From assembly GCA_000002445.1 (NCBI GenBank), contig CM000208.1, positions 2,208,001 through 2,272,000 of the forward strand: a stretch of DNA of 64,000 nt, given 5' to 3'. Each line of letters begins with the position of its first letter. Positions within the stretch are counted from its first letter, which is position 1. The DNA is from Trypanosoma brucei. Taxonomy: Eukaryota. Below, piece after piece: positions 14,456-46,051 of the stretch. The position numbers were made by a program, and so were the translations under genes. The notes beneath the pieces are model-generated. The model saw nothing but the letters and a program-made list of their open reading frames with translations, was not told where the DNA came from and ran no database searches.

Positions 14456-15382
14456 TTATACTAGTGTGAAGGAAAGCAGGGGAGAACCTGATACCATCTG
14501 GAGTACCCTAATTTTTGGAGAGCAGTTGCGGTTTTCGTGATGCTTCTTTTTCCCCACCGTCACACCGAGTTACAAGAATTACGTGCCATTATGGGGGTGA
14601 TCGTCACAGTACGTTACTGTTATCGTTCGTGTTGTTTCGCGCCTGTCGACTGTTACCAATTATTTTTATTCGTTTGCGTTCGGTGGAGTGTTGGTCTCGC
14701 GGAGACTGGAATGAAGAGTTGACTAACGTTACTGTCACCGTTGGCGTGTGCGTGTCGATATTATCTTCTGGGTTGGGGAAGCCATATCACGGCGAGGGGA
14801 ATAGGATAAAGGTGGAAATTCGGAAGAAACAAGACATATACACTTACTGTACAGATGCTGATGCTTCACTTTCGTGGTTGCCTTGTTTTTGTTATCGGAA
14901 CGGGAGAGTGTCGCCCTTTCCGGCACACAACGATGAGCGTTTTCTAACTTCATGGGAACTGCGCGAAAGTTGATAATAGGACATTTTGTATTAATGCCAT
15001 TTGATGATTCCATCTACTCTCTGGGCCGAAGTCACAACCGGCAGGCTAGCGTGGTTAAAATCAGCCGGCAGAGCTACTTTGCGGGGTTTATCTGCTTTTT
15101 ATTGGTTTGTTTTGGTGCGCCCCCTCCGCGTCTGCATTTATTATGGTTACAGTGTGTCCGCTGTGGTGGTGGCCTGGTGTGTTACGACATGTTCTTGGTC
15201 CCGATACTTCCGGTTTTTACCGCTTTGTGTCTTGTCACATAATGTGCACCTTGCAAAGGGTGGATATTCATGATCTGCCTTTATCAGGAGTTTCACTATT
15301 TTTTTATGTATGTTATAGGACGAGGCTCTGTGTGGATTGCTGAATTCTGGTGCATGTGTGCGGGCGAGTGCTTTTTCTAACA

Positions 15383-15440
15383 GTTTTCCTTCGCCTTTCT
15401 TTCTTTTATTTTTCCCTGCTCTCAGGTACACCTCCCCCTC
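15383..15440 (+). promoter_or_regulatory. polypyrimidine tract (predicted trans-splice acceptor region) upstream of DEAH helicase ATG 15505
   Basis: ttttccttcgcctttctttcttttatttttccctgctctcAGgtacacctccccctc is pyrimidine-rich with AG. This is why the TTG-initiated N-terminal extension in the ORF track is more likely UTR than coding. Confidence 0.4.
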
Positions 15441-15504
15441 ATTAATACTTTTTTCATTCGTCAACGTTGTTGCATTAATACGAGTTCTGCCACCGTTCAG
15501 GTAT

Positions 15505-17574
15505 ATGTTGAATGAACGGCGGCCTCAGGTGCATTTACCCGTGACGGAGGCTCGCGCCGCAATTGTCCGCATGATTCGCCGCCATAATGCCGTTGTTATT
15601 GTAGGTGAGACGGGTTCAGGAAAGACAACACAAATTCCGCAATATGTGTGGGATGATATCGTCTCAAAGGGGGACGGAGGCATTGTTGGATGCACGCAAC
15701 CACGTCGTGTGGCTGCTGTGAGTATCGCGCGGCACGTCGCACAGCAAAGGGGTGGTAAAGTCGGCGGTGAGGTGGCTTATGCCGTACGATTTGATGACAC
15801 ATGCACAAAAAATACGAAGATAAAGTTCATGACGGACGGTATTCTTTTGCGAGAGATCCAGACGGATCCTGATTTGACGCATTATCGCTGTTTGATTCTT
15901 GATGAGGCACACGAACGAACGCTGCACGGTGATGTACTTTTCGGTCTTCTTAAAGACATTGCCAGACGCAGGAAGAACACACTATCCATTGTCATAATGT
16001 CCGCAACGCTCAACGAGGAGCACTTCTCAAAATTTTGGTGGGATGCGCCGGTTGGCGTGATTCACGGCAGGACTTTTCCGGTAACTATTTATCACACAGT
16101 TGAGCCGCAGGCCGATTATGTGGAGGCAGCTGTGAGTGCCCTTCTACAGATTCACCAACGGGAGGAACCAGGTGATGTTTTGTGTTTCCTTACAGGGAGG
16201 GAGGAAATTGAAGATGCTAAACGGATGCTCGAGCAGCGCATGAAGTTGCTCCCAAATGACATAGGAGATTTTGTTGTTCTTCCGCTTTACTCTGCGATGC
16301 CGTACGAGCAGCAATTGGTTGTGTTTGACCCTGCTCCACCCGGGAAGCGTAAGATAATTATTGCGACAAACATTGCTGAAACTTCTATTACCGTGGAAGG
16401 CATAAAGTACGTGGTGGACAGCGGTGTGGTGAAAGCGAAGCACTACAATTCAAAGACAGGAATGGAAGTGTTGGCAGAAGTTGATGTTAGCAGGGCTCAG
16501 GCGACACAACGTGCAGGACGGGCAGGGCGCGTGGCGGCAGGGAAGTGTTTTCGTCTGTACACCGCTCAGGCCTTTGAATCGCTGCACGAGAACACGGTGC
16601 CGGAAATACAGCGGTGCTCGCTAATTAGCGTAGTGCTGCAGATGAAGAGCCTCAACATTGATCGTATTGCTGACTTTGAGTTCATGGATGCACCGAACCC
16701 GCACGCGTTAACAAAGGCGGAGGAAACACTGATGCTGCTGAACGCTCTGGATAGCGAAGGGTGCGTTACGCCGCTGGGAAAGCGGCTGACCGACTTCCCC
16801 ATTGAGCCAGCAGCAGCTATGGTGCTATTGGCAGGAAAGGCTTTAGGTGTCGAGCGTGAAGCAGTTATTGCTATTGCGATGACAAGCACCGAAAACTTGT
16901 TTGTTACATCCCGTGACATGAAAGAAAGGGCTGACAGGTGCAAAGGGGCCTTTGCGAAGTCCGCAGGAGATCACGCAACTCTGGTTAGCATCTACCAGGC
17001 GTTTAAACATTCACCAAAGGATCAGCGAAAGTTATGGTGCGAGACAAACGCCATCAGCTATCGCCAAATGCTAAAAGTTCAAGATGTTATTACGCAGCTT
17101 ATGGCTATACTTGCTGAGGGTGATGACGAGGAATTGTTAGCTACTTTAGTGCCCAAGTCAGTTCGGCAAGCGCTGTCCCATAAGGCGACGGACGAGAGTT
17201 GTGCCGTCGTCAGTGGGAGTAATGACGACAACACCGTGACGAACGGTTATGACCACCAGTGGGAGCCTGGTGCGAATGGAAGGTCTAGTGGACTAAAGTT
17301 TCGTGATTTTGAGCTTCTTCGTCGCGCGCTTTGTTGCGGTTATTTTCTTAATGTAGCCTTTTACAATGCAAAAATTGGCAACTTCCAAACCGTAGTGGGA
17401 CAGCAGGTGGTGCACATCCACCCCTCATCGGTGCTATTCACGTTGCGAAGAAAGCCAGCATTAGTACTATTCAACAGCGTTGTGCGTACAACAAGACGAT
17501 ATATGCAAAACGTTTCCGTTGTGCAGGAGGCCTGGCTTCGTGAAACATCGTCTTTCTCACGTATGATGTTGTAA
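15505..17574 (+). CDS. DEAH-box ATP-dependent RNA helicase (DHX family; short N-terminus as in DHX33/35-type)
   Basis: Motif I VIVGETGSGKTTQIPQY, motif II ILDEAHERT, motif III SATL, and the typical FLTGREEIE, TNIAETSITVEGIKYVVDSG and QRAGRAGR motifs are present. The C-terminal HA2/OB region has the classic CCGYFLNVA...HIHPSSVLF. The track ORF starts at TTG 15337, but the first 56 codons are a pyrimidine-rich low-complexity stretch that is probably 5' UTR/splice-acceptor sequence. The first ATG (MLNERRPQVHLPVTEARAAIV) is at 15505. Confidence 0.8.
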   Translation: MLNERRPQVHLPVTEARAAIVRMIRRHNAVVIVGETGSGKTTQIPQYVWDDIVSKGDGGIVGCTQPRRVAAVSIARHVAQQRGGKVGGEVAYAVRFDDTCTKNTKIKFMTDGILLREIQTDPDLTHYRCLILDEAHERTLHGDVLFGLLKDIARRRKNTLSIVIMSATLNEEHFSKFWWDAPVGVIHGRTFPVTIYHTVEPQADYVEAAVSALLQIHQREEPGDVLCFLTGREEIEDAKRMLEQRMKLLPNDIGDFVVLPLYSAMPYEQQLVVFDPAPPGKRKIIIATNIAETSITVEGIKYVVDSGVVKAKHYNSKTGMEVLAEVDVSRAQATQRAGRAGRVAAGKCFRLYTAQAFESLHENTVPEIQRCSLISVVLQMKSLNIDRIADFEFMDAPNPHALTKAEETLMLLNALDSEGCVTPLGKRLTDFPIEPAAAMVLLAGKALGVEREAVIAIAMTSTENLFVTSRDMKERADRCKGAFAKSAGDHATLVSIYQAFKHSPKDQRKLWCETNAISYRQMLKVQDVITQLMAILAEGDDEELLATLVPKSVRQALSHKATDESCAVVSGSNDDNTVTNGYDHQWEPGANGRSSGLKFRDFELLRRALCCGYFLNVAFYNAKIGNFQTVVGQQVVHIHPSSVLFTLRRKPALVLFNSVVRTTRRYMQNVSVVQEAWLRETSSFSRMML

Positions 17575-18075: not shown

Positions 18076-20010
18076 ATGGGTTCTTTTACTTCCTGTGACC
18101 AACGCCCAACGGCATCGACTACCGCTGCTCCGCATTCTTATGATGCTGATAAGGTGCTTCGAAACTTTGACACCTCAACCCCCACCGCCGCCGTCATTGG
18201 TGCCGGCATTACGGGTGTGCACATCGCCTACGAACTCGCTCAGTTGGGATTCCGCGTAACAGTTTTCGAGCAACGCCGGGATATTGGCCTTGGTGAAACG
18301 CAATACGCGCTTCCATTTGTTGGTGTCGGTTTGCTTCATCCTTACATTCATTCCATTCGGATGGGTCGCGAGCTGCTATGGTCAAAACTGAAATTGAACT
18401 CGAAAGACATAGTAACTGTTGACTTCTCGTGGAATTTCCTCTTCTCATCCTTCATCCACCGCTGGCTATGGGCGAGGAAGTGGGGTAAGCTGAGAGCAGA
18501 AGAGGTGATGAAGTATACAAACAATTTGGCACGCTTAAGTGTGGGTGTTATTGATGAACTTTCCCACAAACACAAAACCCTTGCACCGTACGTTCTAAGT
18601 CGGAACGTCACTGTGCAGACGTTGGAGGAGGGGCCTCGCGCCGATAAGCGGGAAGCAATACTGCACCAGGCCGCAACAGCCCATCGTCAGCCGTTAATGG
18701 TTGATTTGGTGGGATGGACACGCGAGCTGGCTAAAGTTTGTCGTGAGAAATACGGTGTAGAATTTGCAGTTGGCGAGAAACTTTTGGATTTCAAGACGAC
18801 CCTGTCCTTCGGAGTGGAAGTGGTGTCTGGTCTGCGTTTCTCACGTAACGTTGACGGGCGCGTGGAGTATAAAAACCGGGTCTTTGACGTCGTTGTTCTT
18901 GCCGCCGGTGCACAAACGGGTGAGTTGACGTGGGAGTCGTCACAAATCCCCATCGTTGGATTGGCTGGCTGCTCCGTTGCTCTGCGTCCTGGAGCTGGAG
19001 AGGGAGTTGGGGAGCTTATGGGGAAGTTGCACCTCTCTTCACCCGGTTTGGTTATGGTTTCTCCAGAAAGTCACCTTGTTTGCTACAGGACGTCAGCTAG
19101 TAATGATGCTGGTGGGGAAGTGCTTTTCCTTCAGGGTCTATTGTCTCTGGACTGCACCGTAAGGACTTTGCCACGCGTTGGGAGAATGCTTTCACGCATA
19201 GAGGCACATCTACGGGAGAAGTGCCAGATTAATATCCCGCTTTTGCACCGCTATCGTGAGTGTGGTGGGAGACAACAGCTGGATGATGGTAACACACACG
19301 TTGTGACGAGCAATCCGGTAATGCATGCTGCAGAGTACATTCGTTCTTCTACACCGGACGGCGTTCCGTTCATTGGTGATAACGGTGCCGCGTTTAATTC
19401 TTTCATATGTGCAGGCTTTGGTGATCATGCTGCCGACATGGCTCCAGGTGCAGCAAAAATACTGGCGAAGTTTATCGAATTAAAAGCATGTGCAATGCAA
19501 AGACAGGATGAAAAGACGATGGAGCGCGACGGCTATAATATTGCCGCTGTTATGTCGGACGAGCGCGTGGAGAAAACGCGGCGAGAGCTGCAGTTACTCC
19601 TTAACGGCTGCCAGACTATTGACGATATTCCCCCAGGAGGGGAATTGGAGAACTTTGTGCAGCTTCCGTATTCTTACACACGTTTTGATGGGGTTGTGAA
19701 GGACCAAATCCCCGATGTGGCGCACGTTTCGCTTTTGCAGCGGGTGTCTGACATGGAGAAACGTTTGCTTCAAACTTTTGCTCCCTGGGAGCATTACATC
19801 AACCAGCAGGCTATCAAACTCTCGCGTCGCGATAACGTCCCCGATTGGCTGAGGACCATTGTGTATTACTACTTTCTGGACGAAAGTGACGATCTGGAGA
19901 TGCTGAAGAACAAGCAGAAGTACGTGGAGGGAATTCGCCGTATACGTGAGCAATTTGAGGAAGGTAATGAAACGTCAGCCAGTGGGGCCACTCCGTCATC
20001 GTCATCGTAG
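18076..20010 (+). CDS. FAD-dependent oxidoreductase (DAO-like) with a C-terminal extension of about 200 aa
   Basis: ATG start. The N-terminal Rossmann dinucleotide-binding motif is AAVIGAGITGVHIAYELAQLGFRVTVFEQRRDIGLGET (GxGxxG...E). The product is 644 aa. The C-terminal about 200 aa (charged, coiled-coil-like ...LKNKQKYVEGIRRIREQFEEG) has no obvious counterpart in typical DAO enzymes. Confidence 0.55.
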   Translation: MGSFTSCDQRPTASTTAAPHSYDADKVLRNFDTSTPTAAVIGAGITGVHIAYELAQLGFRVTVFEQRRDIGLGETQYALPFVGVGLLHPYIHSIRMGRELLWSKLKLNSKDIVTVDFSWNFLFSSFIHRWLWARKWGKLRAEEVMKYTNNLARLSVGVIDELSHKHKTLAPYVLSRNVTVQTLEEGPRADKREAILHQAATAHRQPLMVDLVGWTRELAKVCREKYGVEFAVGEKLLDFKTTLSFGVEVVSGLRFSRNVDGRVEYKNRVFDVVVLAAGAQTGELTWESSQIPIVGLAGCSVALRPGAGEGVGELMGKLHLSSPGLVMVSPESHLVCYRTSASNDAGGEVLFLQGLLSLDCTVRTLPRVGRMLSRIEAHLREKCQINIPLLHRYRECGGRQQLDDGNTHVVTSNPVMHAAEYIRSSTPDGVPFIGDNGAAFNSFICAGFGDHAADMAPGAAKILAKFIELKACAMQRQDEKTMERDGYNIAAVMSDERVEKTRRELQLLLNGCQTIDDIPPGGELENFVQLPYSYTRFDGVVKDQIPDVAHVSLLQRVSDMEKRLLQTFAPWEHYINQQAIKLSRRDNVPDWLRTIVYYYFLDESDDLEMLKNKQKYVEGIRRIREQFEEGNETSASGATPSSSS

Positions 20011-31000: not shown

Positions 31001-31500
31001 AGGCACCACAAATCCGCAAGGCGATTCAGGCATTGGGACCAGCAGCGGTTACTGAGTTTCTCAAAACTGGCGAAGTGGAGGTGCTCGGCAAGAAGATATC
31101 GCGTGACGATGTGAAGGTGATCCGTAAAGTAAAGGATGGCATAACTGACTTTGAGAGCAACACTGACAATGATGTGGTCGTTCTCTTGGACAAGCGAGAT
31201 GACCAAACGTTGGTGGACTCATGGCGCGCGCGGGAGTTCGTTAACCGAGTGCAGCAGCTCCGCAAGAAGGCCAAACTCATCGTCAAAGACATTATTGAGG
31301 TCTACTTCGAGACGGAGGATCCGGAACTGACTACCTCGATCCTCAACTGCTCTGAGCAGGTTAACAAAACTATCCGGGGGAAATGGGAAACAATGGACAA
31401 GCTCCCTAAAGGGGCTAAGCTAATTGCGGAGGAAGACAACTCGATATCGGGAGTTGGAATAAGAATTGTTTTCACACAACCGTCGGCTGGTGAATCGTAA
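28069..31500 (+). CDS. IARS: isoleucyl-tRNA synthetase (class I; eukaryotic cytosolic type) with N-terminal presequence-like extension; second in-frame ATG at about 28267
   Basis: HIGH-region variant PPFATGLPHYGHLL and KMSKS motif KMSKRL are present. Editing/CP1 and anticodon-binding regions are in the expected order, giving 1143 aa from ATG 28069. The first 66 aa (MNRCYSLLCSVLNSGKRAQTSFPSTRRTVIHSRVLPSES...) are basic and hydroxylated, with acidic residues only at the distal end (ET.., DK.., E), consistent with a mitochondrial presequence. The canonical enzyme body starts at MTGPLQNFGDELNFPKMEEEVLKHWEDIDAFK (ATG about 28267). A strong polypyrimidine tract lies upstream (27941-28062). Confidence 0.9.
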   Translation: MNRCYSLLCSVLNSGKRAQTSFPSTRRTVIHSRVLPSESITSSFSPPETTTASKDKSRGEAASKTTMTGPLQNFGDELNFPKMEEEVLKHWEDIDAFKECLKQSEGKKPYTFYDGPPFATGLPHYGHLLAGTIKDIVCRYAHQTGHHVDRRFGWDCHGLPIEFEIDKEYGIKSSHDVKKMGIENYNNACRAIVMRFSEEWRKTVTRMGRWIDFDNDYKTMYLSYMESVWWVFKSLWDKGLVYRGFKVMPFSTACTTPLSNFEANLNYKDVSDPSLMVTFRTKDDPNTFLIAWTTTPWTLPSNLALCVHPDIDYVKVLDSKTKRHYIFGEPRLGEVYPKKKGDGKKGTEASPYTIVSRMKGKELVGTKYEPLFPYFEEKYGATAYRVLCDAYVATDSGTCVVHQAPGFGEEDNRICIDSGVITKEDMLCPVDENGSFTPDVVDFQGRYVKEADSDIIKYLESKGLVHSKGSIVHSYPFCWRSEAPLIYKAVDTWFVKVESLREQLLSANEETEWVPDFVKVRRFSNWLADAKDWNVSRNRYWGTPLPIWHSEDWEEVVCVGSVAELEELSGTKGITDIHRHFVDQLTIPSKRPGMPPLRRVEVVFDCWFESGSMPYAQIHYPFAAKDSFVGEKFPADFVAEGLDQTRGWFYTMLVLGVALFGRAPFKNVVVNGLILAEDGKKMSKRLKNYPEPGIIINTHGADALRMYMINSPVVRAEPLRFREQGVKGIVRDVMLPLFNAAKFFIANANYCVELGGNVATDVVSSNEMDRWILASTQTLQQYVKREMEKYHLYNVVPGVLRFVVDLSNWYVRMNRRRMKDTVDLEDRSRALSTMLNVLFAVSRIIAPIAPFVAEMLYLRIKPLLPQEQQLKSVHFHMFPEDDISKHDEVLERAMTRMVTIVELARVLRDRMVIPMKRPVRQVVVVHPDEAYLDDVRKVVTYIKEEVSAFEVVLSSSDEYVTTQLDASMENLGKLYRNEAPQIRKAIQALGPAAVTEFLKTGEVEVLGKKISRDDVKVIRKVKDGITDFESNTDNDVVVLLDKRDDQTLVDSWRAREFVNRVQQLRKKAKLIVKDIIEVYFETEDPELTTSILNCSEQVNKTIRGKWETMDKLPKGAKLIAEEDNSISGVGIRIVFTQPSAGES

Positions 31501-32284: not shown

Positions 32285-33526
32285 ATGACGCACTATGTTG
32301 ATAGTGTATTGTACTGGTTCCCCACGCTGGTACTTGTGGTTTGTATGATTGTGCTGATCGTCACCGCGGTTGGTTTGAGTCTTGGGAAGTTCTGGCGGGG
32401 CTTATCATCGTGGTCATGGCGTCGTATTTTTTCCCTAACACGCATGTCGATGCGTCAAACCACATTTCGTGCATCGATGAATGCAGAAGAGGCGGTGGAA
32501 ACGGCACTGCGGAAGGCTGGCTGGAAGCACGTTTTCCTCCGCCGTCGCGTCTTCGTGCCGCGGTTGCAACACAATCGTGAAATTGATGTTGTGGCTGTTG
32601 GACCCGTGGTGCTGGTGGTGGAAGTGAAACACTGGCGTGGCTCCGTTTGGTGCAATGGCCAGCGCTGGTTTCAACAGGTGCATAAGACTGCGCGGGCACT
32701 CGAGTTTGAAGACATTAGGGAAGATAACGTTGTAAAGGCGGCTGCACTCCGTCGACATATCGAAAACGATAAACGTGTACCGCTTCCAGACTTCAATTTA
32801 CTTTCGGACTGTCTGCAGGAGAGTGAAGGGGATGGAACATGGTATGAGGACCGACGTCTCCACAAACAATGCGGCACCGTCATCATCCCCGTAGTAGTGT
32901 TCACGAACCCACTGGTTCGCTTGGATCCCAGCACGGTTAAGCAAAAGGATGACGTATTTGACTTGCCCGGGTTAGAGAGGTATGCAAGAAACCTCCTGTA
33001 CAACACGCGTGGAGCGTCAGTCTTTGACTATTACAAACAGCGCGTTGATGAGTTTTTGCGTCCTATATTTATCGGAAGAAGTATAACACCCGATACTTAT
33101 TGCCTATCTTTTTTTACTGAAGAAAAAGTGGCCCGCGTGGTCGAGCGTATGCGCACGTGGGACATGGTTTATCTTCTTAATGGGCGGCTGGTTCATGGGG
33201 ATATTGTATCTTTTGGGCTCCCCTCTACCAACCGCCATTTTGTGCGTCAGCAGATATCTGATGTGGAGATTACATGGTTCGATGGTTTAATTGGTTTTGC
33301 GCGAACCATGTGGATGAACAGTGGTGGAATGGTCAAAATTACCCTTTCAAGTCCGCGAAAGAGGAAGGTTTTTAGTTTTCCTCTAATGCCGCGCCACTTG
33401 AAATCCATTTATAAGAACGACCGACTGGTGCTTAAGTTGGCGGGTACGACCAATTTGGAGGAAATACCTTTGGCGGATATCGCGACACTCCGGCTCAGTC
33501 AGCACCGGGAAACGGACGGATCCTAA
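32285..33526 (+). CDS. NERD-domain (nuclease-related, PD-(D/E)xK-like) protein with N-terminal transmembrane/signal-anchor segment
   Basis: ATG start, 413 aa. N-terminal hydrophobic helix FPTLVLVVCMIVLIVTAVGLSL is followed by a basic stretch. Residues around 65-135, AEEAVETALRKAGWKHVFLRRRVFVPRLQHNREIDVVAVGPVVLVVEVKHWRGSVWCNGQRWFQQ, match the NERD pattern (GE..v..L...; EIDhvvv.p.gvfviEvKn..G.v.....W.q) with the D...ExK catalytic-type triad. The C-terminal about 250 aa are unassigned. Confidence 0.5.
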   Translation: MTHYVDSVLYWFPTLVLVVCMIVLIVTAVGLSLGKFWRGLSSWSWRRIFSLTRMSMRQTTFRASMNAEEAVETALRKAGWKHVFLRRRVFVPRLQHNREIDVVAVGPVVLVVEVKHWRGSVWCNGQRWFQQVHKTARALEFEDIREDNVVKAAALRRHIENDKRVPLPDFNLLSDCLQESEGDGTWYEDRRLHKQCGTVIIPVVVFTNPLVRLDPSTVKQKDDVFDLPGLERYARNLLYNTRGASVFDYYKQRVDEFLRPIFIGRSITPDTYCLSFFTEEKVARVVERMRTWDMVYLLNGRLVHGDIVSFGLPSTNRHFVRQQISDVEITWFDGLIGFARTMWMNSGGMVKITLSSPRKRKVFSFPLMPRHLKSIYKNDRLVLKLAGTTNLEEIPLADIATLRLSQHRETDGS

Positions 33527-34090: not shown

Positions 34091-35704
34091 ATGCTTCGCA
34101 CTAGCATTATTGTGCGGTGGGTTCCAAAGTACTTTAAGCGATCTATTCAAGCACCCCAAAGGCAGCGACGAGGAGGTCCAACAATTGAAGCGACATGTGG
34201 GAGGGACAATAAGTCCTACCCATCCGCTGACGCACGACGTGAAACGGTTTCCGGGCATGCGAAGAAACAAAAAGCACGGGATGCAACTGTGATGGCAAGT
34301 AAACAGCGCGTACCACATCCGAAAGCATTTTCTCCACATCGAACCCCAGAGGTTCGGGCGCTTGCAGAAAAGGCAACTACGATTCTCCGTTGTTTTGATC
34401 AACAAAAACTGGAGGGACAAGTGTTTAGTCGAGGAATAGGACCCGATTGCCATAGCTCTGGACTATCACCTTCCGCATTGACGAAGGATCATTGCGAGGA
34501 CGCGCAACTCCGCCGGAGCAAGGGCAGTTTGTGTTTCATGGGAAAGACAGAGGTACTTGCTGTGCTCAAAGCTGTGCTTCCCCCACCCCCACTCAATAAT
34601 GCGGCGTCTCTTTCCCACGGTGACTGCCAACGGCTATCAGAGCCGTGTGGGTCGACCCGTAGCCTTTTAGTTGCTATTCCTGATGACGAGGCTGCCAATG
34701 TTCATGGTTACCTACGACGTATAAGGGGCAAAGCTGAGGACAAGGAGGGAGATATTACAAGCATTGATAGTGCTGCTGGCGGGACAACTTTGGCTGCGTC
34801 TATGTCGTTGCGCGATGTGACTATTTTTTTGCAACTGTACGAAGCCGTGGAGAGTGAGGATGGTGCACTGCTTCTTCAACTAATGGGTGTGCTGAGACGC
34901 ATTGTGTTTTCAGGTCACGGATGTGAATTTAACGAAGGAAGCCCCAAGGACACCGTTGGTGTGGTGTCGCAGCTGCTTGTTGTTCTTTCAAGTCTTGGTC
35001 TGGCAGAGGAACACGTCCTTCAGAGGCTAGTAAGTTCCACTGGGCCCTTCCTCACGACTCCCCTAATCCTTAACAGCAAAGAGTCCAATCTGATACAACT
35101 CCTTGTGGCACTTCACCGCTTCGGTTTCCACCACGAGAAGTGCTACACGGCTTGTGTAAGGGCATTGCAGACTGCAGCACATCGAGATCCGCTGAACTCT
35201 TTCATTCGGCATGCACTTCTGAAGCGTGGTAGCAAAGAGCCCGCGCAGCTCTCGAAGGGAGGCATCAGAATCCCTCGGTGTTTGAATGGGCTAACAGTGA
35301 GTGATTTACTCGAGGCACTCTCTGGGATGGCTCTTAGTTTACACAGACAGAAAGTTGTTGTGGACTTGCTCCTAGCCACGATAGTCGCTATCGTACTGAA
35401 CGAAGAGCTTGCAATGACAAATAAACCCCATCTCCGCAATCCGGAAAATATCGTGACCACTGCCGATGAACATGCCTTCATGCAGGACTGGATTTCGGCT
35501 CGGGCACTACAGGTACAACGTGCAGCTAAAGTAAGCGAACAAATGGAATTGCCTCACCCAGTAATCCCTCAACTCTTCGAGCGACTCGCTGTTCGTTACC
35601 GTGGGCTGATCGTTGATGGTGGCGATGGGGATATTAGTCCAGAGAATGTGGGCTTCTACGATGCCGTCACAGCAGACTTGATAAAGGTATCGAGAAGTAA
35701 GTGA
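34091..35704 (+). CDS. hypothetical protein (537 aa; alternative start at about 34292 would give 470 aa)
   Basis: ATG at 34091, with a second in-frame ATG (MASKQRVPHPKAF) near 34292. The intervening 67 aa are basic and presequence-like. The body is Leu-rich and helical (possibly HEAT/ARM-like). No catalytic motif recognised. Confidence 0.5.
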   Translation: MLRTSIIVRWVPKYFKRSIQAPQRQRRGGPTIEATCGRDNKSYPSADARRETVSGHAKKQKARDATVMASKQRVPHPKAFSPHRTPEVRALAEKATTILRCFDQQKLEGQVFSRGIGPDCHSSGLSPSALTKDHCEDAQLRRSKGSLCFMGKTEVLAVLKAVLPPPPLNNAASLSHGDCQRLSEPCGSTRSLLVAIPDDEAANVHGYLRRIRGKAEDKEGDITSIDSAAGGTTLAASMSLRDVTIFLQLYEAVESEDGALLLQLMGVLRRIVFSGHGCEFNEGSPKDTVGVVSQLLVVLSSLGLAEEHVLQRLVSSTGPFLTTPLILNSKESNLIQLLVALHRFGFHHEKCYTACVRALQTAAHRDPLNSFIRHALLKRGSKEPAQLSKGGIRIPRCLNGLTVSDLLEALSGMALSLHRQKVVVDLLLATIVAIVLNEELAMTNKPHLRNPENIVTTADEHAFMQDWISARALQVQRAAKVSEQMELPHPVIPQLFERLAVRYRGLIVDGGDGDISPENVGFYDAVTADLIKVSRSK

Positions 35705-36224: not shown

Positions 36225-36890
36225 ATGTCTGAGGAGTCCTTGACGTTTGCTGAAGTTGTGGCCCGCAAGAATCGTGGGAGCCAATCCGAACTTGTCGGTG
36301 CGGATGACAGTGTTGCCAGCCTGCCTTCACATGGAGCACTTCAAAATGGATTAATTGTATTACCATCGCGCCCTTCGGTGGGTGAGAGCTACGCGGATGC
36401 AGTAAAGTCAGCGAGTGTGAAACTTGGTGGTGTTCCGGTGAATGTGTCCAAGCTGGATGGCCATGAGTCCGTCACGAATTCAACTTTACAAGAACAGGAG
36501 TCCGTACTTTCTTCCTGGGCTGATGATGACGAATGTTTCTTTGACTCGGTTCGAAACGCCTTGCAGAACAGAAATGATGAATTTGAATTGAGGGGCTACC
36601 CCAACAATAGCCTTTCTTACGTCAATGTTGGTAATAACGGTTCTAACAACGTTTATGGCAACTCCAATAACAATTACGGTGGCTACAGCAACTTCCGGCG
36701 GGGTCGTGGGTCACGTGGGTGGCGGTTCATTAACGGTAACGAAGCAAATTCCAGCAATGGCAACACCCACAGCAACAACAACAAAAAACGAAAGGGATAT
36801 AACAACAAAACTTGGGGCTCCTACAATCCACCTTGTGGAGTTGATTCTTTAAACCACTTCGGTGGTGGGAGGTTCAGTGGATTTCGGTAG
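36225..36890 (+). CDS. hypothetical protein with Asn/Gly/Tyr-rich low-complexity (prion-like) region and RGG/RG motifs; candidate RNA-binding or granule protein
   Basis: ATG start, 221 aa. The C-terminal half is NVGNNGSNNVYGNSNNNYGGYSNFRRGRGSRGWRF...NSSNGNTHSNNNKKRKGYNNKTWGSYNPP...GGGRFSGFR. Confidence 0.45.
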   Translation: MSEESLTFAEVVARKNRGSQSELVGADDSVASLPSHGALQNGLIVLPSRPSVGESYADAVKSASVKLGGVPVNVSKLDGHESVTNSTLQEQESVLSSWADDDECFFDSVRNALQNRNDEFELRGYPNNSLSYVNVGNNGSNNVYGNSNNNYGGYSNFRRGRGSRGWRFINGNEANSSNGNTHSNNNKKRKGYNNKTWGSYNPPCGVDSLNHFGGGRFSGFR

Positions 36891-39670: not shown

Positions 39671-39737
39671 GAGGTGAAAATTTCCGGTGCTTCAGTACGG
39701 CATTACCGACGGAAGTTTCACTTTTACACACGACCTT

Positions 39738-42047
39738 ATGGAAACCTCATGTGCCTCTGCAGAAGTGCGTAATGAATTGAGTAAATTATTGCAGCGGTTT
39801 CAAGATCCAGAGGTTCAGTTTGACCCCATTCAAAAACGTGGAGTCATAAGTAAGGTGATTGGTTACATGACGATGGGTGTTGACACTTCATGTCTCTTTC
39901 CACACTTGACACTTGCATGTGAGACGACAGACTTTGTCACCAAGAAACTCGTTTACCTTTATCTCAGCAATCATGCAGAGAAGAATCCTGAAGTGGCGTT
40001 ACTTTGTATAAACACACTTATTAAAGAGTGTAAGGAACAAAGTCCCATTGTGCGAGGACTTGCGCTGCGCTCCCTTTCTTCCCTTCGGTTGCCACAACTG
40101 TTTGAGTACTTATTTCCTGTCCTAAAGACTGCCTTCACCGATCCATCCCCTTATGTGCGCAAGACGGCGTGCACATGCGCCCTTAGAGTTTTCCGCGCGT
40201 CACCCGCGGAGTTTCGCAGGCATCAGTTTCTCAACAACGTCCTAAAGGCCTTGCAGGATAGCGATGCTCTGGTGTGTGGGAATGCATTGGCAGTGCTTCT
40301 TGAAGTCTCCCGCGAAGCCGAAGCTAATGGTTGTACGGAAGGTGTTTTGCATGTGACAAAACCTTTATTGTACCAACTGCTAAACATCATGAAACGCGTC
40401 TCCGAGTACCACCGCGTGCAGATTATTAGCCTCATACATAAATACGTACCTCAAGATGAGAGTGAAATGTATGACATTATGAATTTATTGGATGAACACC
40501 TCCAGACGAGGAATAGCGGTACTGTACTAAGTGTGTGCAAGGCTTTGTTTCACCTGACGCAGAATCACCCTGCGATGTATTCTGAGGTTCTCAGTCGCTT
40601 AAAGGCCCCGCTTCTTACGCTAGTGTCGTCGTGCACTGGAACAGAGGCGGTGTATCCTGTGCTATGTCATATTAAGCTGCTGCTGCAACATGAGCCCCGG
40701 CTTTTTCAGGATGCATACAAGTCATTCTATTGCCGCAACGGGGACCCAACCTATACAAAGACGGTTAAGATGGATATACTTAGTATGTTAGTGACTCCCA
40801 CCTCGGTAGGAGATATTCTCAATGAATTTGTAGCGTATGCGCACGAACGTGGAAGCAGCGCGGTGTCATGTGCCGCCATCGAGGCGATTGGCCGAATCCC
40901 ATTGAAACTACCAGCGATGGTGGAGGATGTGACGAAGCATCTCGTTACATTCCTGGAGAGCAGTGTTGAGTACGTACGTAACACGAGCATCACGGTCATG
41001 AAGGGCGTTCTGAAAAATCGTCGGTATATTCCCACGGTCCAATTGTTTCTTGAGAAGCTGATGGAATCATATCGTGAGATGGATGTGGTGGAACCTGAGA
41101 GCTCCGTAGCGCTTGTGTGGCTTCTCGGCGAGTATGGTGAGCACATAGAAGAGGCGCCGTATATTTTGGAGGAGATGTGTAATGATTCTCTTCTCAAGCG
41201 CCCAGCAGAGTTCCTTCGACAGTTTCTTACATCCTCCATAACATTGTTCTTCAAACGCCCACCGGAAATGCAACGCGTTCTAGGACGGATGTTCCAACTG
41301 CTTGCCAATGACTTCACACATCCAGATGTTCACGACCAGGTGCGTCTCTACTATCGGTTACTCCGAGAGAACCCAGAAGTAGCTTCCTACGTAATATGCG
41401 CCCCGAAGTCTGACATTATCGAGTTTGCAGAGGAGCGGAACGCGGAACTCAAGGATAAACTCTTTGATGAGTTCAATACACTCTCTGTTGTGTATTTCCG
41501 ACCGAGTGAAGAATTTGTCCGCGACTCTGCACCACGCACAGGCGATGATGACGATGATAAAACTGAAGATGAAGAACAGGAAGACGATCCCACACATGAC
41601 GAGGATGGGAATAAGACAACACACGAGGGGATAGCAGGCCACAATGTCTCCACTTTGCCTAACGTTTCTCATCCTCATTTGGAAAGCAACTTTAGTCTCT
41701 CAGTTGATGCGAGCATGGAACTGCACGAGTTTGAGCATCGCTGGATCTCGCTTGGTGATTCAGTTGTGACGACAGCCAACATGCAATTGCGGCTGCGCAG
41801 TGTCCCTGACATGGAAATGTTTGAAGATGCACTTGACGTGTGTGGAGTCGTCATGCTTACGGCTGGTCCTCACAATGATGGTGATAGATGCTTTTTGTAT
41901 GCGCAAGAAGAGGGCGCAATGGGAGCGTACTTTCTACTGGAGGTATGCCTGTCGAGGAATGGTATGGTAAACGTTAAGGTGAAGTCCGACAGCGCTCACA
42001 TGCAGCAATTTTTGCAACATTTTCACAAAATCATGGATCAGTTTTGA
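39738..42047 (+). CDS. AP-complex beta subunit (beta-adaptin)
   Basis: Track ORF starts at GTG 39687; the first ATG (METSCASAEVRNELSKLL) is at 39738. The adaptin N-terminal trunk is clear: KRGVISKVIGYMTMGVDTSCLFPHLT, KKLVYLYLSNHAEKNPEVALLCINTLIKECKEQSPIVRGLALRSLSSLRL, and SPYVRKTACTCALRVF. An acidic hinge (DDDDDKTEDEEQEDDPTHDEDG) is followed by a short C-terminal appendage-like domain. Which AP complex (AP-1/3/4) cannot be decided from sequence alone. Confidence 0.8.
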   Translation: METSCASAEVRNELSKLLQRFQDPEVQFDPIQKRGVISKVIGYMTMGVDTSCLFPHLTLACETTDFVTKKLVYLYLSNHAEKNPEVALLCINTLIKECKEQSPIVRGLALRSLSSLRLPQLFEYLFPVLKTAFTDPSPYVRKTACTCALRVFRASPAEFRRHQFLNNVLKALQDSDALVCGNALAVLLEVSREAEANGCTEGVLHVTKPLLYQLLNIMKRVSEYHRVQIISLIHKYVPQDESEMYDIMNLLDEHLQTRNSGTVLSVCKALFHLTQNHPAMYSEVLSRLKAPLLTLVSSCTGTEAVYPVLCHIKLLLQHEPRLFQDAYKSFYCRNGDPTYTKTVKMDILSMLVTPTSVGDILNEFVAYAHERGSSAVSCAAIEAIGRIPLKLPAMVEDVTKHLVTFLESSVEYVRNTSITVMKGVLKNRRYIPTVQLFLEKLMESYREMDVVEPESSVALVWLLGEYGEHIEEAPYILEEMCNDSLLKRPAEFLRQFLTSSITLFFKRPPEMQRVLGRMFQLLANDFTHPDVHDQVRLYYRLLRENPEVASYVICAPKSDIIEFAEERNAELKDKLFDEFNTLSVVYFRPSEEFVRDSAPRTGDDDDDKTEDEEQEDDPTHDEDGNKTTHEGIAGHNVSTLPNVSHPHLESNFSLSVDASMELHEFEHRWISLGDSVVTTANMQLRLRSVPDMEMFEDALDVCGVVMLTAGPHNDGDRCFLYAQEEGAMGAYFLLEVCLSRNGMVNVKVKSDSAHMQQFLQHFHKIMDQF

Positions 42048-42800: not shown

Positions 42801-43898
42801 ATGGATGACAAACAGGCGTTCTTTGTACGCTGCATAGATGGAAAGACATTTAAGATGGTGATTCGGGGGGACCTGGGGAAGTTAACTGTTGGAAAGATTA
42901 GGCGATACCTAAAATCATACGGTGTCCAAGATGGGATGCAGCTACTCTTCAACGGTTTGTCGCTTGCGGACGAGCAGGTGGGCAGCGATTTTGGCCTTTG
43001 CAATGGTGCCACGCTGCATTTGGGTCCTCCATCGTTTAGTGAACCTGCGGTCCCACAACGGACTCATGGCCAAGGCTTTAGTGACGAGGCAGCTGGTTCA
43101 AGGACCGGAGACCCAACTGATACACCTCATTCATCTCTGAGTGGTGACTCGCGGGAACGTAACTCAAAAGCGGACTCCACGCATCGTGACCCGTGTGGTG
43201 GGTTAAGTCATGCCGATCCAGCGAGAGGGACTGCCACTTACTCAGGGGGACGTTATAATGTGGATAAAGGGATCCCTGTTACCGCTACCTCTGCAACGAA
43301 AACAAATATTGATAGGATCCCCAGCGCCGATTTGACTAGTCACAGTGGTTTCCCGGTGGCTCTCGAAGTAGAGAACCAGCAACTGCGCGAACAGGTGGAG
43401 TTACTGCGTCGGGAGGTCGCCGACTTGAGGCAAAAGAACAAGGCGCCGCGCGCCACGGTATTGCGACAGGATCTCACATCAATAGAGGTGCTGCAGAGTG
43501 CTAAATCCAACCTGCAAGAACTTGCTGAAGAACTTGGTGTTCCACTTCAATTCGATACGAACTTCACTTGTGTGGTGGGTGATGACGAGAGCCACACCGT
43601 CTTGGTTACCTTTGACTGTGTCACTGAGCGTCTCTATATATATTCCACCCTCCTCACTCAAATTCCGCATGATGGTGAGGTTCGCGCCAAGTTGTATGAA
43701 CTTCTACTGGAGGGTTCATTGCTTAGCCGCGAGGTTTGTGGCGGTGGCATCGGCATATCACCGCAGAACGGTCTCGTGCTTCTCTCTACCACCATACCTC
43801 TGCGGCACTGCAACTCCTCCGCGTTGAAGGATATCATGCCGGTGTTTGTTGAAACAGTTGCGCGCTGGCGTTCGCTCATAAATGAACTGCTTAACTAG
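42801..43898 (+). CDS. protein with N-terminal ubiquitin-like domain, central coiled coil and C-terminal alpha/beta domain (function unknown)
   Basis: ATG start. Residues 1-77 align to the ubiquitin fold: FFVRCIDGKTFKMVI (compare IFVKTLTGKTITLEV) and QLLFNGLSLADEQ...GATLHLG (compare QRLIFAGKQLEDG...STLHLV). A heptad-like segment follows (ENQQLREQVELLRREVADLRQKNK). The C-terminal about 130 aa (TFDCVTERLYIYSTLL...GLVLLSTTIPL...FVETVARWRSLINELL) are unassigned. Confidence 0.5.
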   Translation: MDDKQAFFVRCIDGKTFKMVIRGDLGKLTVGKIRRYLKSYGVQDGMQLLFNGLSLADEQVGSDFGLCNGATLHLGPPSFSEPAVPQRTHGQGFSDEAAGSRTGDPTDTPHSSLSGDSRERNSKADSTHRDPCGGLSHADPARGTATYSGGRYNVDKGIPVTATSATKTNIDRIPSADLTSHSGFPVALEVENQQLREQVELLRREVADLRQKNKAPRATVLRQDLTSIEVLQSAKSNLQELAEELGVPLQFDTNFTCVVGDDESHTVLVTFDCVTERLYIYSTLLTQIPHDGEVRAKLYELLLEGSLLSREVCGGGIGISPQNGLVLLSTTIPLRHCNSSALKDIMPVFVETVARWRSLINELLN

Positions 43899-45241
43899 CA
43901 CGATAATAGTTTGAAACCTCTTTTCATTGTTATTGTTCGCTTCCTTCCCATTCTTCGTGGGTTGATGAGGGGGCAGTCAAGTTTCATATGAAGTGCTTGC
44001 TGCGCCCCCACCCCGGCCTCTTTCGTTTCTGTCTTGGCTTCCCGCCACCGCTATTTGCAGCTACTGCTGCTTTATCACATCGGAGTTTTGAGGGACACAC
44101 GAGAGAGCATTTGGTCACACAGTCACTATTAACATGTTGAGATGGAGGTAAGACGATAGACCATGTGATAGAGGGGAAAACACTAGTAAGCTCAACGGAA
44201 GGAAGGAAGTTTAGATGAAAATAAAAAAATTTTGAAGAAAGAACACAAATGGGGAAGCATGTGAAGGGGAAGGGGAAAATGAAGGGTAATACCTTTTGTT
44301 GGTACAGCGTAGTTTAGTGATTGCTTGGGGATCGGACAGCCGATCAGAAAGGGCAAGTTTCTTTGCACTACATATCTAACGGGTTCCAATATTCAGTTGA
44401 GTGCAGCACACTGACGGAGATGCGTTTGAAAAACTCGTGAGGCCGCTGCGAAAACTGACGGCAGGAAGGGTTCGAAGAAAAGGAGGAGAGTACGTGCTAG
44501 GTGTGGGTGGTGGTGGTAATTTTATATTGCTTCGTCTTTTATGTTTTATGCTGTTTATGTTTTAACTTATCTGCCCAACCAAAGGCTGTGGTCACACGCC
44601 GCAAACTAGGTGGGTTTAGAAGGCAAGGTTTGAATTATGTGCCTTCTTCTTTTCGTTGTTAACTAAATCCCCTTCCTTTTCTTTCATTTACTTCGTGGAG
44701 TACCACCCTCCATATCACATACATACACACACGCACGTACAGAATTACCTCTCGCCGCGATGTCCTCGTTAAGAATTGGCCTTTAATATGTCCCTTTACT
44801 TACCGTTATATCTGACGTGCACGGATCTACGTATCGGGCCGGGACCTTTTCTCACTTTTACTTCGGTCGGATCTCACCCAATGCATTCCCCTTCTCTCGA
44901 TAGGCATTTGAACGAGCGTTTGCGCGTAAATTTTCCCGTTCCACCTTTTAACTTTCTTCTTCACTGAAAGAATTCAACAATCGTCATACATATAAGTGTG
45001 CGAAAGCATGTGCGTTCATCAACTAACTGTCGGTCTTGTAGTACCCAAGCATACCTTTTTATCTTTCTTTTTTTTTTTACTAAACCGGTGTGTAACCGTG
45101 CCTGTGAGATATAGAGAATCAATAAAAGGGAGACGGTAGGGAAGTGGGTCTTTGAAAAAGACAAAAAACAAAAACAAAAATCAAATCGGACTACGAGGTG
45201 ATATTGAGACCTCCCCGCTGATTTGTGTGCACGGAAGGAAA

Positions 45242-46051
45242 ATGCCGCCGCCGCCACCAGCACCACCGCCACCGCCACCGCCACCACCTCCACCCAAGGC
45301 AACAGAAGGCAACTCATCAAGCACCGTTGGAGGCGCGGCATCGGCCCTCTTTGCTGAGATCCGCCAGGGTGGTGATAACATTACCTCTCGACTCCGCCAC
45401 GTGACGGATGATCAAAAAGCATATAAACAAAACATTCAACACGGTGCCGTTGATTTCTCCGACCTCGATGCAAAGAAGGCAGAGGCGGAGGCCAAGCGAC
45501 AGCAGAAGCAAAAGCAACCGGAAACCACCGCAGCGGAGGAACCCGTGACGCGACTCGAAGGGGACAAGCGGTGGGTGGTTAAACACCACAAAGGAACTCC
45601 TTCGGAACCCTGCAAGGTGACTTTGGAAGATGTCAATATGCGTCATGCCGTGCACATTCACGGTTGTGACAACACATTTGTTGAGGTAAAGGGGAAAGTT
45701 AACACGGTCTCCGTTGTGTCATGCAATAAGGCGCAAGTTATCCTGGAGAGTGTTGTCTCGGCTTTGGAGGTCCTCAAGTCTGACAGCGTTGATGTTACGG
45801 TGCGGCGTTTTGTCCCCACTGCTATGGTTGAGAAAAGCACGTCGGTGAATCTCTTCCTCATGGATGTTGAGGAGGCGCCGAACACTGAAATTGTAACAGC
45901 ATGCAGCAGCGCTGTGAATGTGAACTTCCCTACCGTGGAGGATCCAACAGATATTTTGGAAAGACCCCTCCCGGAGCAGTTCGTCTCACGTATTGTGAGG
46001 GACAATAGAGGAAAGTATAAGATTGAGACGAAGCCAAATGAGGTGGCGTAG
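45242..46051 (+). CDS. cyclase-associated protein (CAP/Srv2), short form: polyproline + WH2 + C-terminal CARP beta-helix domain
   Basis: Track ORF starts at TTG 45152; the first ATG (MPPPPPAPPPPPPPPPPPKATEG) is at 45242. A polyproline tract is followed by a WH2-like motif, GAASALFAEIRQGGDNITSRLRHVTDDQK (compare LF.EI.QG...LKHV). The C-terminal CARP/TBCC-type beta-helix repeats are VNMRHAVHIHGCDNTFVEVKGKVNTVSVVSCNKAQVILESVVSALEVLKSDSVDVTV. The N-terminal helical-folded domain of canonical CAP is absent. Confidence 0.65.
   Translation: MPPPPPAPPPPPPPPPPPKATEGNSSSTVGGAASALFAEIRQGGDNITSRLRHVTDDQKAYKQNIQHGAVDFSDLDAKKAEAEAKRQQKQKQPETTAAEEPVTRLEGDKRWVVKHHKGTPSEPCKVTLEDVNMRHAVHIHGCDNTFVEVKGKVNTVSVVSCNKAQVILESVVSALEVLKSDSVDVTVRRFVPTAMVEKSTSVNLFLMDVEEAPNTEIVTACSSAVNVNFPTVEDPTDILERPLPEQFVSRIVRDNRGKYKIETKPNEVA

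What the first reader, a model, noticed from the sequence alone, without database searches (positions are those of the whole stretch)
32285..33526. Membrane-anchored NERD-domain (PD-(D/E)xK-like nuclease-related) protein in a eukaryotic parasite
Residues about 65-135 carry the NERD signature with a D...ExK triad, ...REIDVVAVGPVVLVVEVKHWRGSVWCNGQRWFQ..., preceded by AEEAVETALRKAGW. An N-terminal hydrophobic helix plus basic flank could be a signal anchor or a mitochondrial import signal. NERD domains are predominantly bacterial/archaeal, with few characterised eukaryotic members, and the C-terminal about 250 aa have no assignable fold. In a kinetoplastid, a compartment-targeted nuclease-like protein is a plausible player in mitochondrial (kinetoplast) DNA or RNA metabolism. 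It could also reflect a horizontally acquired module. Either way it is a poorly described protein class for this lineage.
Basis: partly seen in the sequence, partly recalled or inferred. Interest (0 to 1): 0.6.

Follow-up and report, generated by a model that had tools for sequence, protein, structure and literature searches.

The report
Known trypanosome rRNA-processing NERD nuclease (TbLrRP2)

Summary
The ORF at 32285-33526 (+) is real. It encodes a 413-aa, 48.0-kDa protein with one N-terminal transmembrane helix and a significant Pfam NERD domain (44.2 bits against a cutoff of 22.1). It is residue-for-residue identical to T. brucei TREU927 XP_823144.1/Q38A54 and lies directly downstream of the single-copy IleRS gene Tb927.10.9190. 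It is therefore Tb927.10.9200, published as TbLrRP2 (Amodeo et al., NAR, December 2025, PMC12702573).

That paper reports an integral ER/nuclear-envelope protein with its bulk facing the cytosol. It is a predicted heterodimer partner of TbLrRP1 and is required for excision of LSU-rRNA spacers ITS3-7. A five-residue NERD alanine mutant is inactive. The guess of a mitochondrial/kinetoplast role does not, although the TMD-deleted protein is imported into mitochondria.

Three points here are not discussed in the main text of that paper:
- The whole soluble NERD-plus-barrel module occurs in ~326-aa bacterial proteins, mainly from Planctomycetota.
- Non-trypanosomatid relatives, one syntenic with IleRS, lack the TMD.

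Novelty: already known. Interest is modest.

The parts
32285..33526 (+). Complete ORF of the NERD protein (413 aa, 48.0 kDa, pI 9.7). This is T. brucei Tb927.10.9200 / TbLrRP2.
   Evidence: Identical to TREU927 XP_823144.1/Q38A54. Lies next to IleRS Tb927.10.9190. Paper description.
32318..32386 (+). N-terminal transmembrane anchor, residues about 12-34 (FPTLVLVVCMIVLIVTAVGLSLG). The AF2 helix spans residues 2-32.
   Evidence: Kyte-Doolittle 19-residue maximum 3.03, and the only segment above 1.6. AF2 helix. Conserved in position in all trypanosomatid orthologs. Integral membrane behaviour is shown in PMC12702573.
32387..32464 (+). Basic juxtamembrane segment, residues 35-60 (KFWRGLSSWSWRRIFSLTRMSMRQTT), net charge +6. 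It follows the positive-inside rule, placing it on the cytosolic side. It is a candidate for the cryptic mitochondrial targeting signal exposed on TMD deletion.
   Evidence: Charge count. Cytosolic C-terminus and mitochondrial import of the ΔTMD protein. Assigning the cryptic signal to exactly this stretch is my inference.
32480..32779 (+). NERD domain (Pfam PF08378), residues 66-165, with a PD-(D/E)xK restriction-endonuclease-like core: α1 at 56-77, β-strands at 82-91, 96-105 and 109-115, α2 at 144-162.
32486..32629 (+). Putative catalytic residues: E68 (32486-32488), E99 (32579-32581), D101 (32585-32587), E113 (32621-32623), K115 (32627-32629).
   Evidence: Invariant in all alignments. They sit on α1, β2 and β3 as in canonical PD-(D/E)xK enzymes. 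A five-residue alanine mutant of charged NERD residues is non-functional, but the text available to me does not name those residues.
32780..32878 (+). Insert specific to the TMD-bearing (trypanosomatid) orthologs, residues 166-198, containing the conserved GTWY...HK.CG motif. It is partly low-confidence in the model and absent from TMD-less and bacterial relatives.
   Evidence: Alignments. pLDDT 52-77 for residues 171-200.
32879..32962 (+). Final conserved core strands, residues 199-226 (VVFTNP.V.LDP motif, with F206 invariant in all tiers). These complete the nuclease-domain sheet beyond the Pfam NERD boundary.
33146..33280 (+). First small β-barrel of the C-terminal half, residues 288-332, preceded by helix 276-287. 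It is Sm/Hfq-like and carries the family-wide RTWD...G..GD motif (W292, D293 and G305 are invariant).
33281..33499 (+). Second β-rich subdomain, residues 333-405: helix 334-344 followed by five strands. In most kinetoplastid orthologs it contains a lysine/arginine-rich loop (KRLAKKRKEKKPRN), which is shortened in T. brucei.
28069..31500 (+). Upstream neighbour, isoleucyl-tRNA synthetase (Tb927.10.9190). It is used as a positional anchor for gene identity, and the adjacency is conserved in a TMD-less relative.
   Evidence: Pfam tRNA-synt_1 E=3e-159 plus Anticodon_1 and DUF5915. Single-copy IleRS = Tb927.10.9190 (PMC3273800). IleRS lies upstream of the NERD gene on L033.

Best explanation
The ORF is Tb927.10.9200 (TbLrRP2) of Trypanosoma brucei. 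It is an N-terminally anchored ER/nuclear-envelope protein whose cytosol-facing NERD domain (a PD-(D/E)xK-type nuclease fold) most likely acts as the endoribonuclease that removes the kinetoplastid-specific spacers ITS3-ITS7 from the large-subunit rRNA. It acts late, on (nearly) assembled 60S particles at or near nuclear export, and works with the DEDDh-domain partner TbLrRP1.

Shown in the literature: membrane integration, ER/nuclear-envelope location, cytosolic C-terminus, co-purification with TbLrRP1, the RNAi phenotype (unprocessed 5.1-kb precursor incorporated into polysomes), and loss of function in both a five-alanine NERD mutant and a TMD deletion.

Shown here: gene identity, a significant NERD match, an invariant E...D...ExK set on canonical secondary-structure elements, and a nuclease-fold match.

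Inferred here: the C-terminal half supplies Sm/Hfq-like small β-barrels that could hold single-stranded RNA next to the active site. The module of NERD plus barrels was inherited as a unit from a bacterial ~326-aa protein family, and the TMD and the GTWY insert were added later in the trypanosomatid line.
For: Identity:
- The protein has zero differences from TREU927 XP_823144.1/Q38A54.
- It is 48.0 kDa; the paper gives 48 kDa.
- It lies immediately downstream of IleRS, and IleRS is Tb927.10.9190.
- The paper describes Tb927.10.9200 as a NERD protein with an N-terminal TMD.

Function (PMC12702573).

Fold:
- Pfam NERD 44.2 bits.
- AF2 pLDDT 90, pTM 0.85.
- Catalytic register with Hjc.
- Invariance of E68/E99/D101/E113/K115 across three evolutionary tiers.

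C-terminal barrels.

Bacterial two-domain relatives.
Against: - No in vitro nuclease assay exists, and the paper itself says the ribonuclease activity is inferred. The five-alanine mutant could fail through misfolding or loss of RNA or partner binding rather than loss of catalysis.
- The heterodimer rests on a 5-fold co-IP enrichment and an AlphaFold3 ipTM of 0.62.
- I could not access model coordinates, so the spatial clustering of E68/D101/E113/K115 was not measured. It is inferred from topology only.
- The mapping of XP_823144.1 to locus tag Tb927.10.9200 is positional and descriptive. I did not read it from a database record.
- The Sm-like assignment has no sequence-level support: hhalign probability 3%, and no Pfam or PDB sequence hits. 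Small β-barrels recur in many unrelated proteins.
Confidence: 0.85

Rival explanations
1. This is the first reader's reading: a mitochondrial (kinetoplast) nuclease. The N-terminal region would act as an import signal and the NERD domain would process kDNA or mitochondrial RNA.
For: The basic, amphipathic-looking segment after the hydrophobic helix has net charge +6. The TMD-deleted protein is efficiently imported into mitochondria. A mitochondrial RNA-editing TUTase was among four proteins co-enriched with TbLrRP1. TMD-less orthologs in other kinetoplastid-like organisms start with the equivalent segment.
Against: The native tagged protein behaves as an integral membrane protein and co-localises with the ER marker BiP and the nuclear envelope. 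Its C-terminus is protease-accessible from the cytosol, and spatial proteomics places it with ER markers. Depletion affects cytosolic LSU rRNA. The mitochondrially sequestered ΔTMD form only marginally complements.
Confidence: 0.04
2. TbLrRP2 is not itself the catalyst. The NERD fold would serve as an RNA- or ribosome-binding or scaffolding module at the nuclear envelope that recruits another, unidentified endonuclease, much as the DEDDh motifs of TbLrRP1 are dispensable.
For: No biochemical activity has been shown. Mutating five charged residues at once is a blunt test. The partner TbLrRP1 works without its catalytic motifs. Some NERD proteins appear non-nucleolytic, for example S. aureus SmdA, which is listed as a cell-morphology determinant (title only).
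Against: The complete E...D...ExK set is invariant from bacteria to trypanosomes, which is the conservation pattern of an active site rather than a scaffold. The set sits in register with the catalytic residues of Hjc. The TbLrRP2 phenotype is stronger than that of TbLrRP1.
Confidence: 0.1
3. The protein is a DNA nuclease, the classical prediction for NERD, acting at the nuclear envelope (for example on rDNA or in DNA repair). The rRNA defects would then be indirect.
Confidence: 0.04

Closest known systems
TbLrRP2 (Tb927.10.9200), Amodeo et al., Nucleic Acids Res. 2025, PMC12702573
   Same: It is the same protein. The sequence is identical to the TREU927 reference protein, with the same size (48 kDa), N-terminal TMD, NERD domain and genomic position next to IleRS.
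   Different: Nothing differs in the protein itself. Three points added here do not appear in the main text of the paper, which I checked by term search (its supplements were not available):
- The C-terminal half has an Sm/Hfq-like barrel fold.
- The bacterial relatives share the whole two-domain soluble module.
- Deep-branching relatives lack the TMD.
The discussion of the paper also says 'C-terminal TMD' in one place, but the TMD is N-terminal.
Bacterial ~326-aa NERD proteins of Planctomycetota (Singulisphaera, Paludisphaera, Gemmataceae, Isosphaeraceae), Hydrogenedentes, Omnitrophota, and Thiomicrorhabdus, Piscinibacter and Acidithiobacillus
   Same: They have a NERD domain with the same invariant E/D/ExK set. 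They also have the same C-terminal domain, with the TWD...G..GD motif and the terminal AG...PL strand, collinear over the whole soluble part.
   Different: They have no TMD, no GTWY insert and no basic loop. Identity is only about 20%. They have no conserved gene neighbourhood, and their function is unknown.
Archaeal Holliday junction resolvase Hjc, UPF0102/YraN, and the CRISPR ancillary nucleases Can2 and Cdn1 (PD-(D/E)xK superfamily)
   Different: There is no significant sequence similarity to any solved structure. Their partner domains differ (CARF in Can2 and Cdn1), and Hjc cleaves DNA junctions.
Hfq / Sm / LSm RNA-binding β-barrels, and the related WYL domains
   Different: Profile-level homology is not significant. 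There is no evidence of ring oligomerisation. Here the barrel is fused to a nuclease and followed by a second barrel.
NERD modules of phage-defence kinases PglW (BREX/Pgl) and MAD6
   Same: They share a short local NERD-core match at residues 91-135.
   Different: Scores are far below the family cutoffs (23.8 against 460, and 13.4 against 990). There is no kinase domain, and the gene is not in a defence context.

Membership tests
NERD domain (Pfam PF08378) | The profile HMM score exceeds the curated gathering threshold. | tested here: met
   44.2 bits against 22.1, E=3.1e-11, residues 66-165, covering positions 4-102 of the 111-position model. All 31 orthologs carry the precomputed PF08378 hit.
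NERD domain (Pfam PF08378) | The charged residues E...D...ExK are conserved on the α1, β2 and β3 elements. | tested here: met
   E68 lies in helix 56-77, D101 in strand 96-105, and E113/K115 in strand 109-115. All are invariant across the three tiers of relatives.
PD-(D/E)xK nuclease superfamily | The protein has a restriction-endonuclease-like αβββαβ fold. | tested here: met
PD-(D/E)xK nuclease superfamily | The D/E/K side chains cluster in space at a solvent-exposed metal site. | not testable with these tools
   Model coordinates are not exposed to the scripting environment. Only the topology and the hhalign register with Hjc could be checked.
PD-(D/E)xK nuclease superfamily | Phosphodiesterase activity has been demonstrated. 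| not testable with these tools
   The only evidence is genetic: a five-alanine mutant fails to complement. The authors state that in vitro work is still needed.
TbLrRP2 (Tb927.10.9200) | The sequence is identical to the T. brucei TREU927 reference protein at that locus. | tested here: met
   Zero differences from XP_823144.1/EAN78316.1/Q38A54, which sits on a 4.05-Mb contig. The upstream gene is IleRS, which is Tb927.10.9190. The link from accession to locus tag is inferred from position and description, and was not read from TriTrypDB.
TbLrRP2 (Tb927.10.9200) | The protein is 48 kDa with a single N-terminal TMD and a NERD domain. | tested here: met
   48,021 Da, with one hydrophobic segment at residues 8-34. 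NERD. Paper description.
Sm / LSm / Hfq fold | The domain is a small, strongly bent five-stranded β-barrel preceded by an α-helix. | tested here: met
Sm / LSm / Hfq fold | The sequence belongs to the family by profile match (Pfam LSM or Hfq) or by significant profile-profile similarity. | tested here: not met
   None of the 33 family members gave a Pfam LSM, Hfq or WYL hit, even at E<=10. hhalign against E. coli Hfq gave probability 3%. A PDB profile search found nothing relevant. The domain is therefore 'Sm-like in fold', and I do not file it as a family member.
   This was not tested computationally. Published experiments place the protein in the ER/nuclear envelope with a cytosolic C-terminus. 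Only the ΔTMD construct enters mitochondria.
Phage-defence NERD kinases (PglW, MAD6) | The protein matches the full-length equivalog model and has a kinase domain. | tested here: not met
   NCBIfam scores are 23.8 against a cutoff of 460, and 13.4 against 990. The matches are confined to about 45 residues of the NERD core.

The most novel reading that the evidence does not exclude
The 'NERD plus Sm-like barrels' module would be a previously unrecognised, bacterially derived family of RNA-directed endonucleases. The Hfq-like barrel would bind single-stranded RNA and position it for cleavage. Kinetoplastids would have acquired the module once, as a soluble protein; TMD-less forms persist in non-trypanosomatid lineages and are still syntenic with IleRS. 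Only the trypanosomatid line would later have tethered it to the ER/nuclear envelope by adding an N-terminal TMD in front of what otherwise behaves as a mitochondrial presequence. On this reading, the subcellular site of LSU-rRNA fragmentation, or even the substrate, may differ between bodonid-like kinetoplastids and trypanosomatids, and the bacterial relatives would be RNases rather than DNases.
Probability: 0.3. Interest if true: 0.5.

Novelty: already known. Interest (0 to 1): 0.3.

Why it matters
Kinetoplastids cut their 28S-equivalent rRNA into six pieces, and for decades no enzyme was known for this. TbLrRP2 is the best candidate for the endonuclease. It is absent from the human host, and its depletion slows bloodstream-form growth. 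It also suggests that NERD domains, long annotated as DNA-processing, can act on RNA. Because all of this was published in December 2025, the window adds no discovery.

What remains open is biochemical: whether the protein cleaves directly and how it chooses its sites. The Sm/Hfq-like barrels, the two-domain bacterial ancestors and the TMD-less orthologs found here are concrete handles for those experiments and for dating the acquisition.

Tried and rejected
- A phmmer search of the protein, and profile searches with the whole family and with the C-terminal half, against PDB sequences gave no meaningful hits.
- Pfam scans of the C-terminal half in 33 family members at E<=10 gave only scattered single-member noise. 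No Pfam family covers the C-terminal half in any relative tested.
- hhalign of the C-terminal profile against E. coli Hfq gave the expected register but only 3% probability. Sm homology is therefore not claimed.
- NCBIfam gave only sub-threshold NERD-core matches to the defence kinases MAD6 and PglW, so I rejected a defence-system reading.
- Clustering of bacterial gene neighbourhoods across 23 loci found nothing conserved beyond close relatives, so it gave no functional hint.
- I looked for hidden TMD-coding sequence upstream of the TMD-less orthologs in all three frames on four contigs and found none. Truncated gene calls are therefore rejected as the explanation.
- The paper's supplements are not held, so I could not confirm the identities of the five mutated residues.

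Full report
**1. Observation**

The window carries an ATG-to-stop ORF at 32285..33526 on the + strand, encoding 413 aa. The opposite strand in the same span is interrupted by many stops.

Pfam assigns residues 66-165 to NERD (PF08378) with E=3.1e-11 and 44.2 bits, twice the gathering cutoff of 22.1. A Kyte-Doolittle scan finds a single strongly hydrophobic stretch at about residues 8-34, with a 19-residue maximum of 3.03. The flank after it has net charge +4 over 15 residues and +6 over 25 residues.

**2. Identity**

The first homology search returned 31 proteins, and every one that carries an organism name is from a kinetoplastid. The window protein has zero differences from the cluster member with accessions XP_823144.1/EAN78316.1/Q38A54_TRYB2 (T. 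brucei brucei TREU927), which lies on a 4.05-Mb contig.

The ORF immediately upstream (28069..31500) is an isoleucyl-tRNA synthetase (tRNA-synt_1 E=3e-159, Anticodon_1, DUF5915). T. brucei has a single IleRS gene, Tb927.10.9190 (PMC3273800). The next gene on the strand is therefore Tb927.10.9200.

A full-text search for "NERD domain" plus "trypanosom" returned one paper, Amodeo et al., Nucleic Acids Res., 15 December 2025 (PMC12702573). It names Tb927.10.9200 as TbLrRP2 and describes it as a 48-kDa NERD-containing protein with a predicted N-terminal TMD. The computed mass here is 48,021 Da. I consider the identity settled. One caveat is that I inferred the link from accession to locus tag from position and description, and did not read it from TriTrypDB.

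**3. What is already known (from the paper)**

- TbLrRP2 was 2- to 5-fold co-enriched with TbLrRP1 (Tb927.3.5130), a DEDDh-domain protein with a C-terminal TMD. AlphaFold3 predicts a heterodimer (ipTM 0.62).
- It is carbonate-resistant, so it is an integral membrane protein. It co-localises with BiP at the ER and nuclear envelope, and its C-terminal tag is protease-accessible from the cytosol.
- RNAi blocks excision of ITS3-ITS7 of the LSU rRNA. The unprocessed 5.1-kb precursor still enters polysomes. Growth slows, more so in bloodstream forms.
- A version with five conserved charged NERD residues changed to alanine is expressed but does not complement.
- Deleting the TMD nearly abolishes complementation and sends the protein into mitochondria, which the authors explain by a cryptic targeting signal.
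- The authors propose that the NERD domain is an endoribonuclease and that the gene was acquired horizontally in the ancestor of metakinetoplastids. They state that biochemical proof is still missing.

**4. Independent structural checks**

An AF2 model built on 31 orthologs is confident (pLDDT 90, pTM 0.85). It shows a long N-terminal helix (residues 2-32), followed by α(56-77), β(82-91), β(96-105) and β(109-115), then further strands, α(144-162) and β(200-206).

E68 sits on the first helix, D101 on the second strand, and E113 and K115 on the third. This is the canonical PD-(D/E)xK placement. These residues are invariant in the 31 orthologs and also in a mixed alignment with TMD-less and bacterial relatives.

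- Foldseek against the PDB gave nothing significant. Its weak top hits were the R2 restriction-like endonuclease and Exo5.
- hhalign of the family profile against P. furiosus Hjc placed E68/D101/E113/K115 opposite E9/D33/E46/K48 (pairwise E=3.6e-4, probability 37%).

**5. The C-terminal half**

No Pfam family covers it in any relative.

The first barrel carries a family-wide motif, RTWD-hhhL-x-G-xxh-x-GD. It resembles the Sm1 pattern of Hfq as I recall it. Sequence-level tests did not support homology: hhalign gave 3% probability, and there were no relevant PDB or Pfam hits.

I therefore describe the region as Sm/Hfq-like in fold, not as an Sm family member. The functional inference is that it binds single-stranded RNA beside the nuclease. 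That is plausible but untested.

**6. Evolutionary context**

An exhaustive profile search of 1.84 billion representative proteins found 258 proteins at E<=1e-3. Mapping their matches onto the profile gives three tiers.

- Tier 1: TMD-bearing orthologs with a GTWY...HK.CG insert. All the named members are trypanosomatids.
- Tier 2: TMD-less proteins of 350-480 aa (E 1e-87 to 1e-26) that match both halves of the profile.
  - One carries the EukProt label "Tbor_TRINITY...", probably Trypanoplasma borreli.
  - One lies on a GC-rich contig next to a sideroflexin gene.
  - One lies on a 74.8-kb contig with nearly all called genes on one strand.
  - One lies downstream of IleRS with one intervening gene, which preserves synteny with T. 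brucei.
  - On four contigs an in-frame stop lies just upstream of the start codon, and no hydrophobic segment is encoded in any frame before the previous gene. The absence of a TMD is therefore genuine.
- Tier 3: bacterial proteins of about 326 aa that are collinear with the whole soluble part, NERD plus the same C-terminal domain, at about 20% identity.
  - They come from Planctomycetota (Singulisphaera, Paludisphaera, Gemmataceae, Isosphaeraceae), Hydrogenedentes, Omnitrophota, Thiomicrorhabdus, Piscinibacter and Acidithiobacillus.
  - They have no conserved gene neighbourhood.

This supports the paper's horizontal-transfer idea and sharpens it. The unit acquired was the two-domain module, and the TMD appears to be a later addition in the trypanosomatid line. 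The paper's discussion calls the TMD "C-terminal" in one sentence, but it is N-terminal.

**7. Mechanism and rivals**

The best explanation (confidence about 0.85) is that this is TbLrRP2, a cytosol-facing, membrane-tethered PD-(D/E)xK-type enzyme. With TbLrRP1, it excises ITS3-7 from LSU rRNA on nearly mature 60S particles at the nuclear envelope/ER.

- Catalysis by the NERD domain is inferred, not shown.
- The main rival, at about 0.1, is a non-catalytic scaffold.
- A DNA-nuclease role and a mitochondrial role are each at about 0.04. Both run against the published localisation and phenotype.

**8. Verdict**

Novelty is "already known" and interest is 0.3. The residual value lies in three side observations that could guide the missing biochemistry: the Sm-like barrels, the two-domain bacterial relatives and the TMD-less orthologs.

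Noticed in passing
window 42801-43898 (+): A 365-aa ORF has a C-terminal part (residues 237-357) that matches the full length of the Pfam CesT family (Tir / type III secretion chaperone) with E=3.3e-18. This is a bacterial-type chaperone domain in a trypanosome gene.
   Followed up: no
L001 2258-3445; L031 10001-11137; L033 6001-7131; L034 3733-5040: Orthologs of the NERD protein on eukaryote-like contigs with nearly all genes on one strand lack the N-terminal transmembrane helix. In-frame stops lie just upstream of the start codons, and no hydrophobic segment is encoded upstream in any frame. L033 keeps IleRS upstream. Their N-termini align with the T. brucei segment that follows the TMD. This lies within the region left at the N-terminus when the T. 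brucei TMD is deleted, a construct that the paper shows is imported into mitochondria.
   Followed up: partly
L003-L025 (for example L006, Singulisphaera acidiphila NC_019892, locus position 5001-6008): Bacterial ~326-aa proteins, mostly from Planctomycetota, carry NERD plus the same un-named C-terminal domain (TWD...G..GD motif) as the trypanosome protein. No Pfam family covers that domain, and the genes have no conserved neighbourhood.
   Followed up: partly
window 1-64000: All 27 ORFs of at least 200 aa lie on the + strand, consistent with one kinetoplastid polycistronic transcription unit. Recognisable genes include a BT1 transporter (4199-6121), a DEAH-box helicase (15337-17574), an FAD oxidoreductase (18076-20010), a PRA1-like protein (25194-26450, just below the Pfam cutoff), β-adaptin (39687-42047) and a CAP C-terminal domain protein (45152-46051).
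   Followed up: partly
window 34091-35704 (+) and 36225-36890 (+): The two genes immediately downstream of the NERD gene (537 aa and 221 aa) have no Pfam match at E<=1e-3.
   Followed up: no
P0036 (EukProt, 1636 aa), residues 130-579: One EukProt gene model embeds a complete TMD-bearing TbLrRP2-like region (E=8e-165) in a 1636-aa protein. This is probably a fused gene model rather than a real multidomain protein.
   Followed up: no
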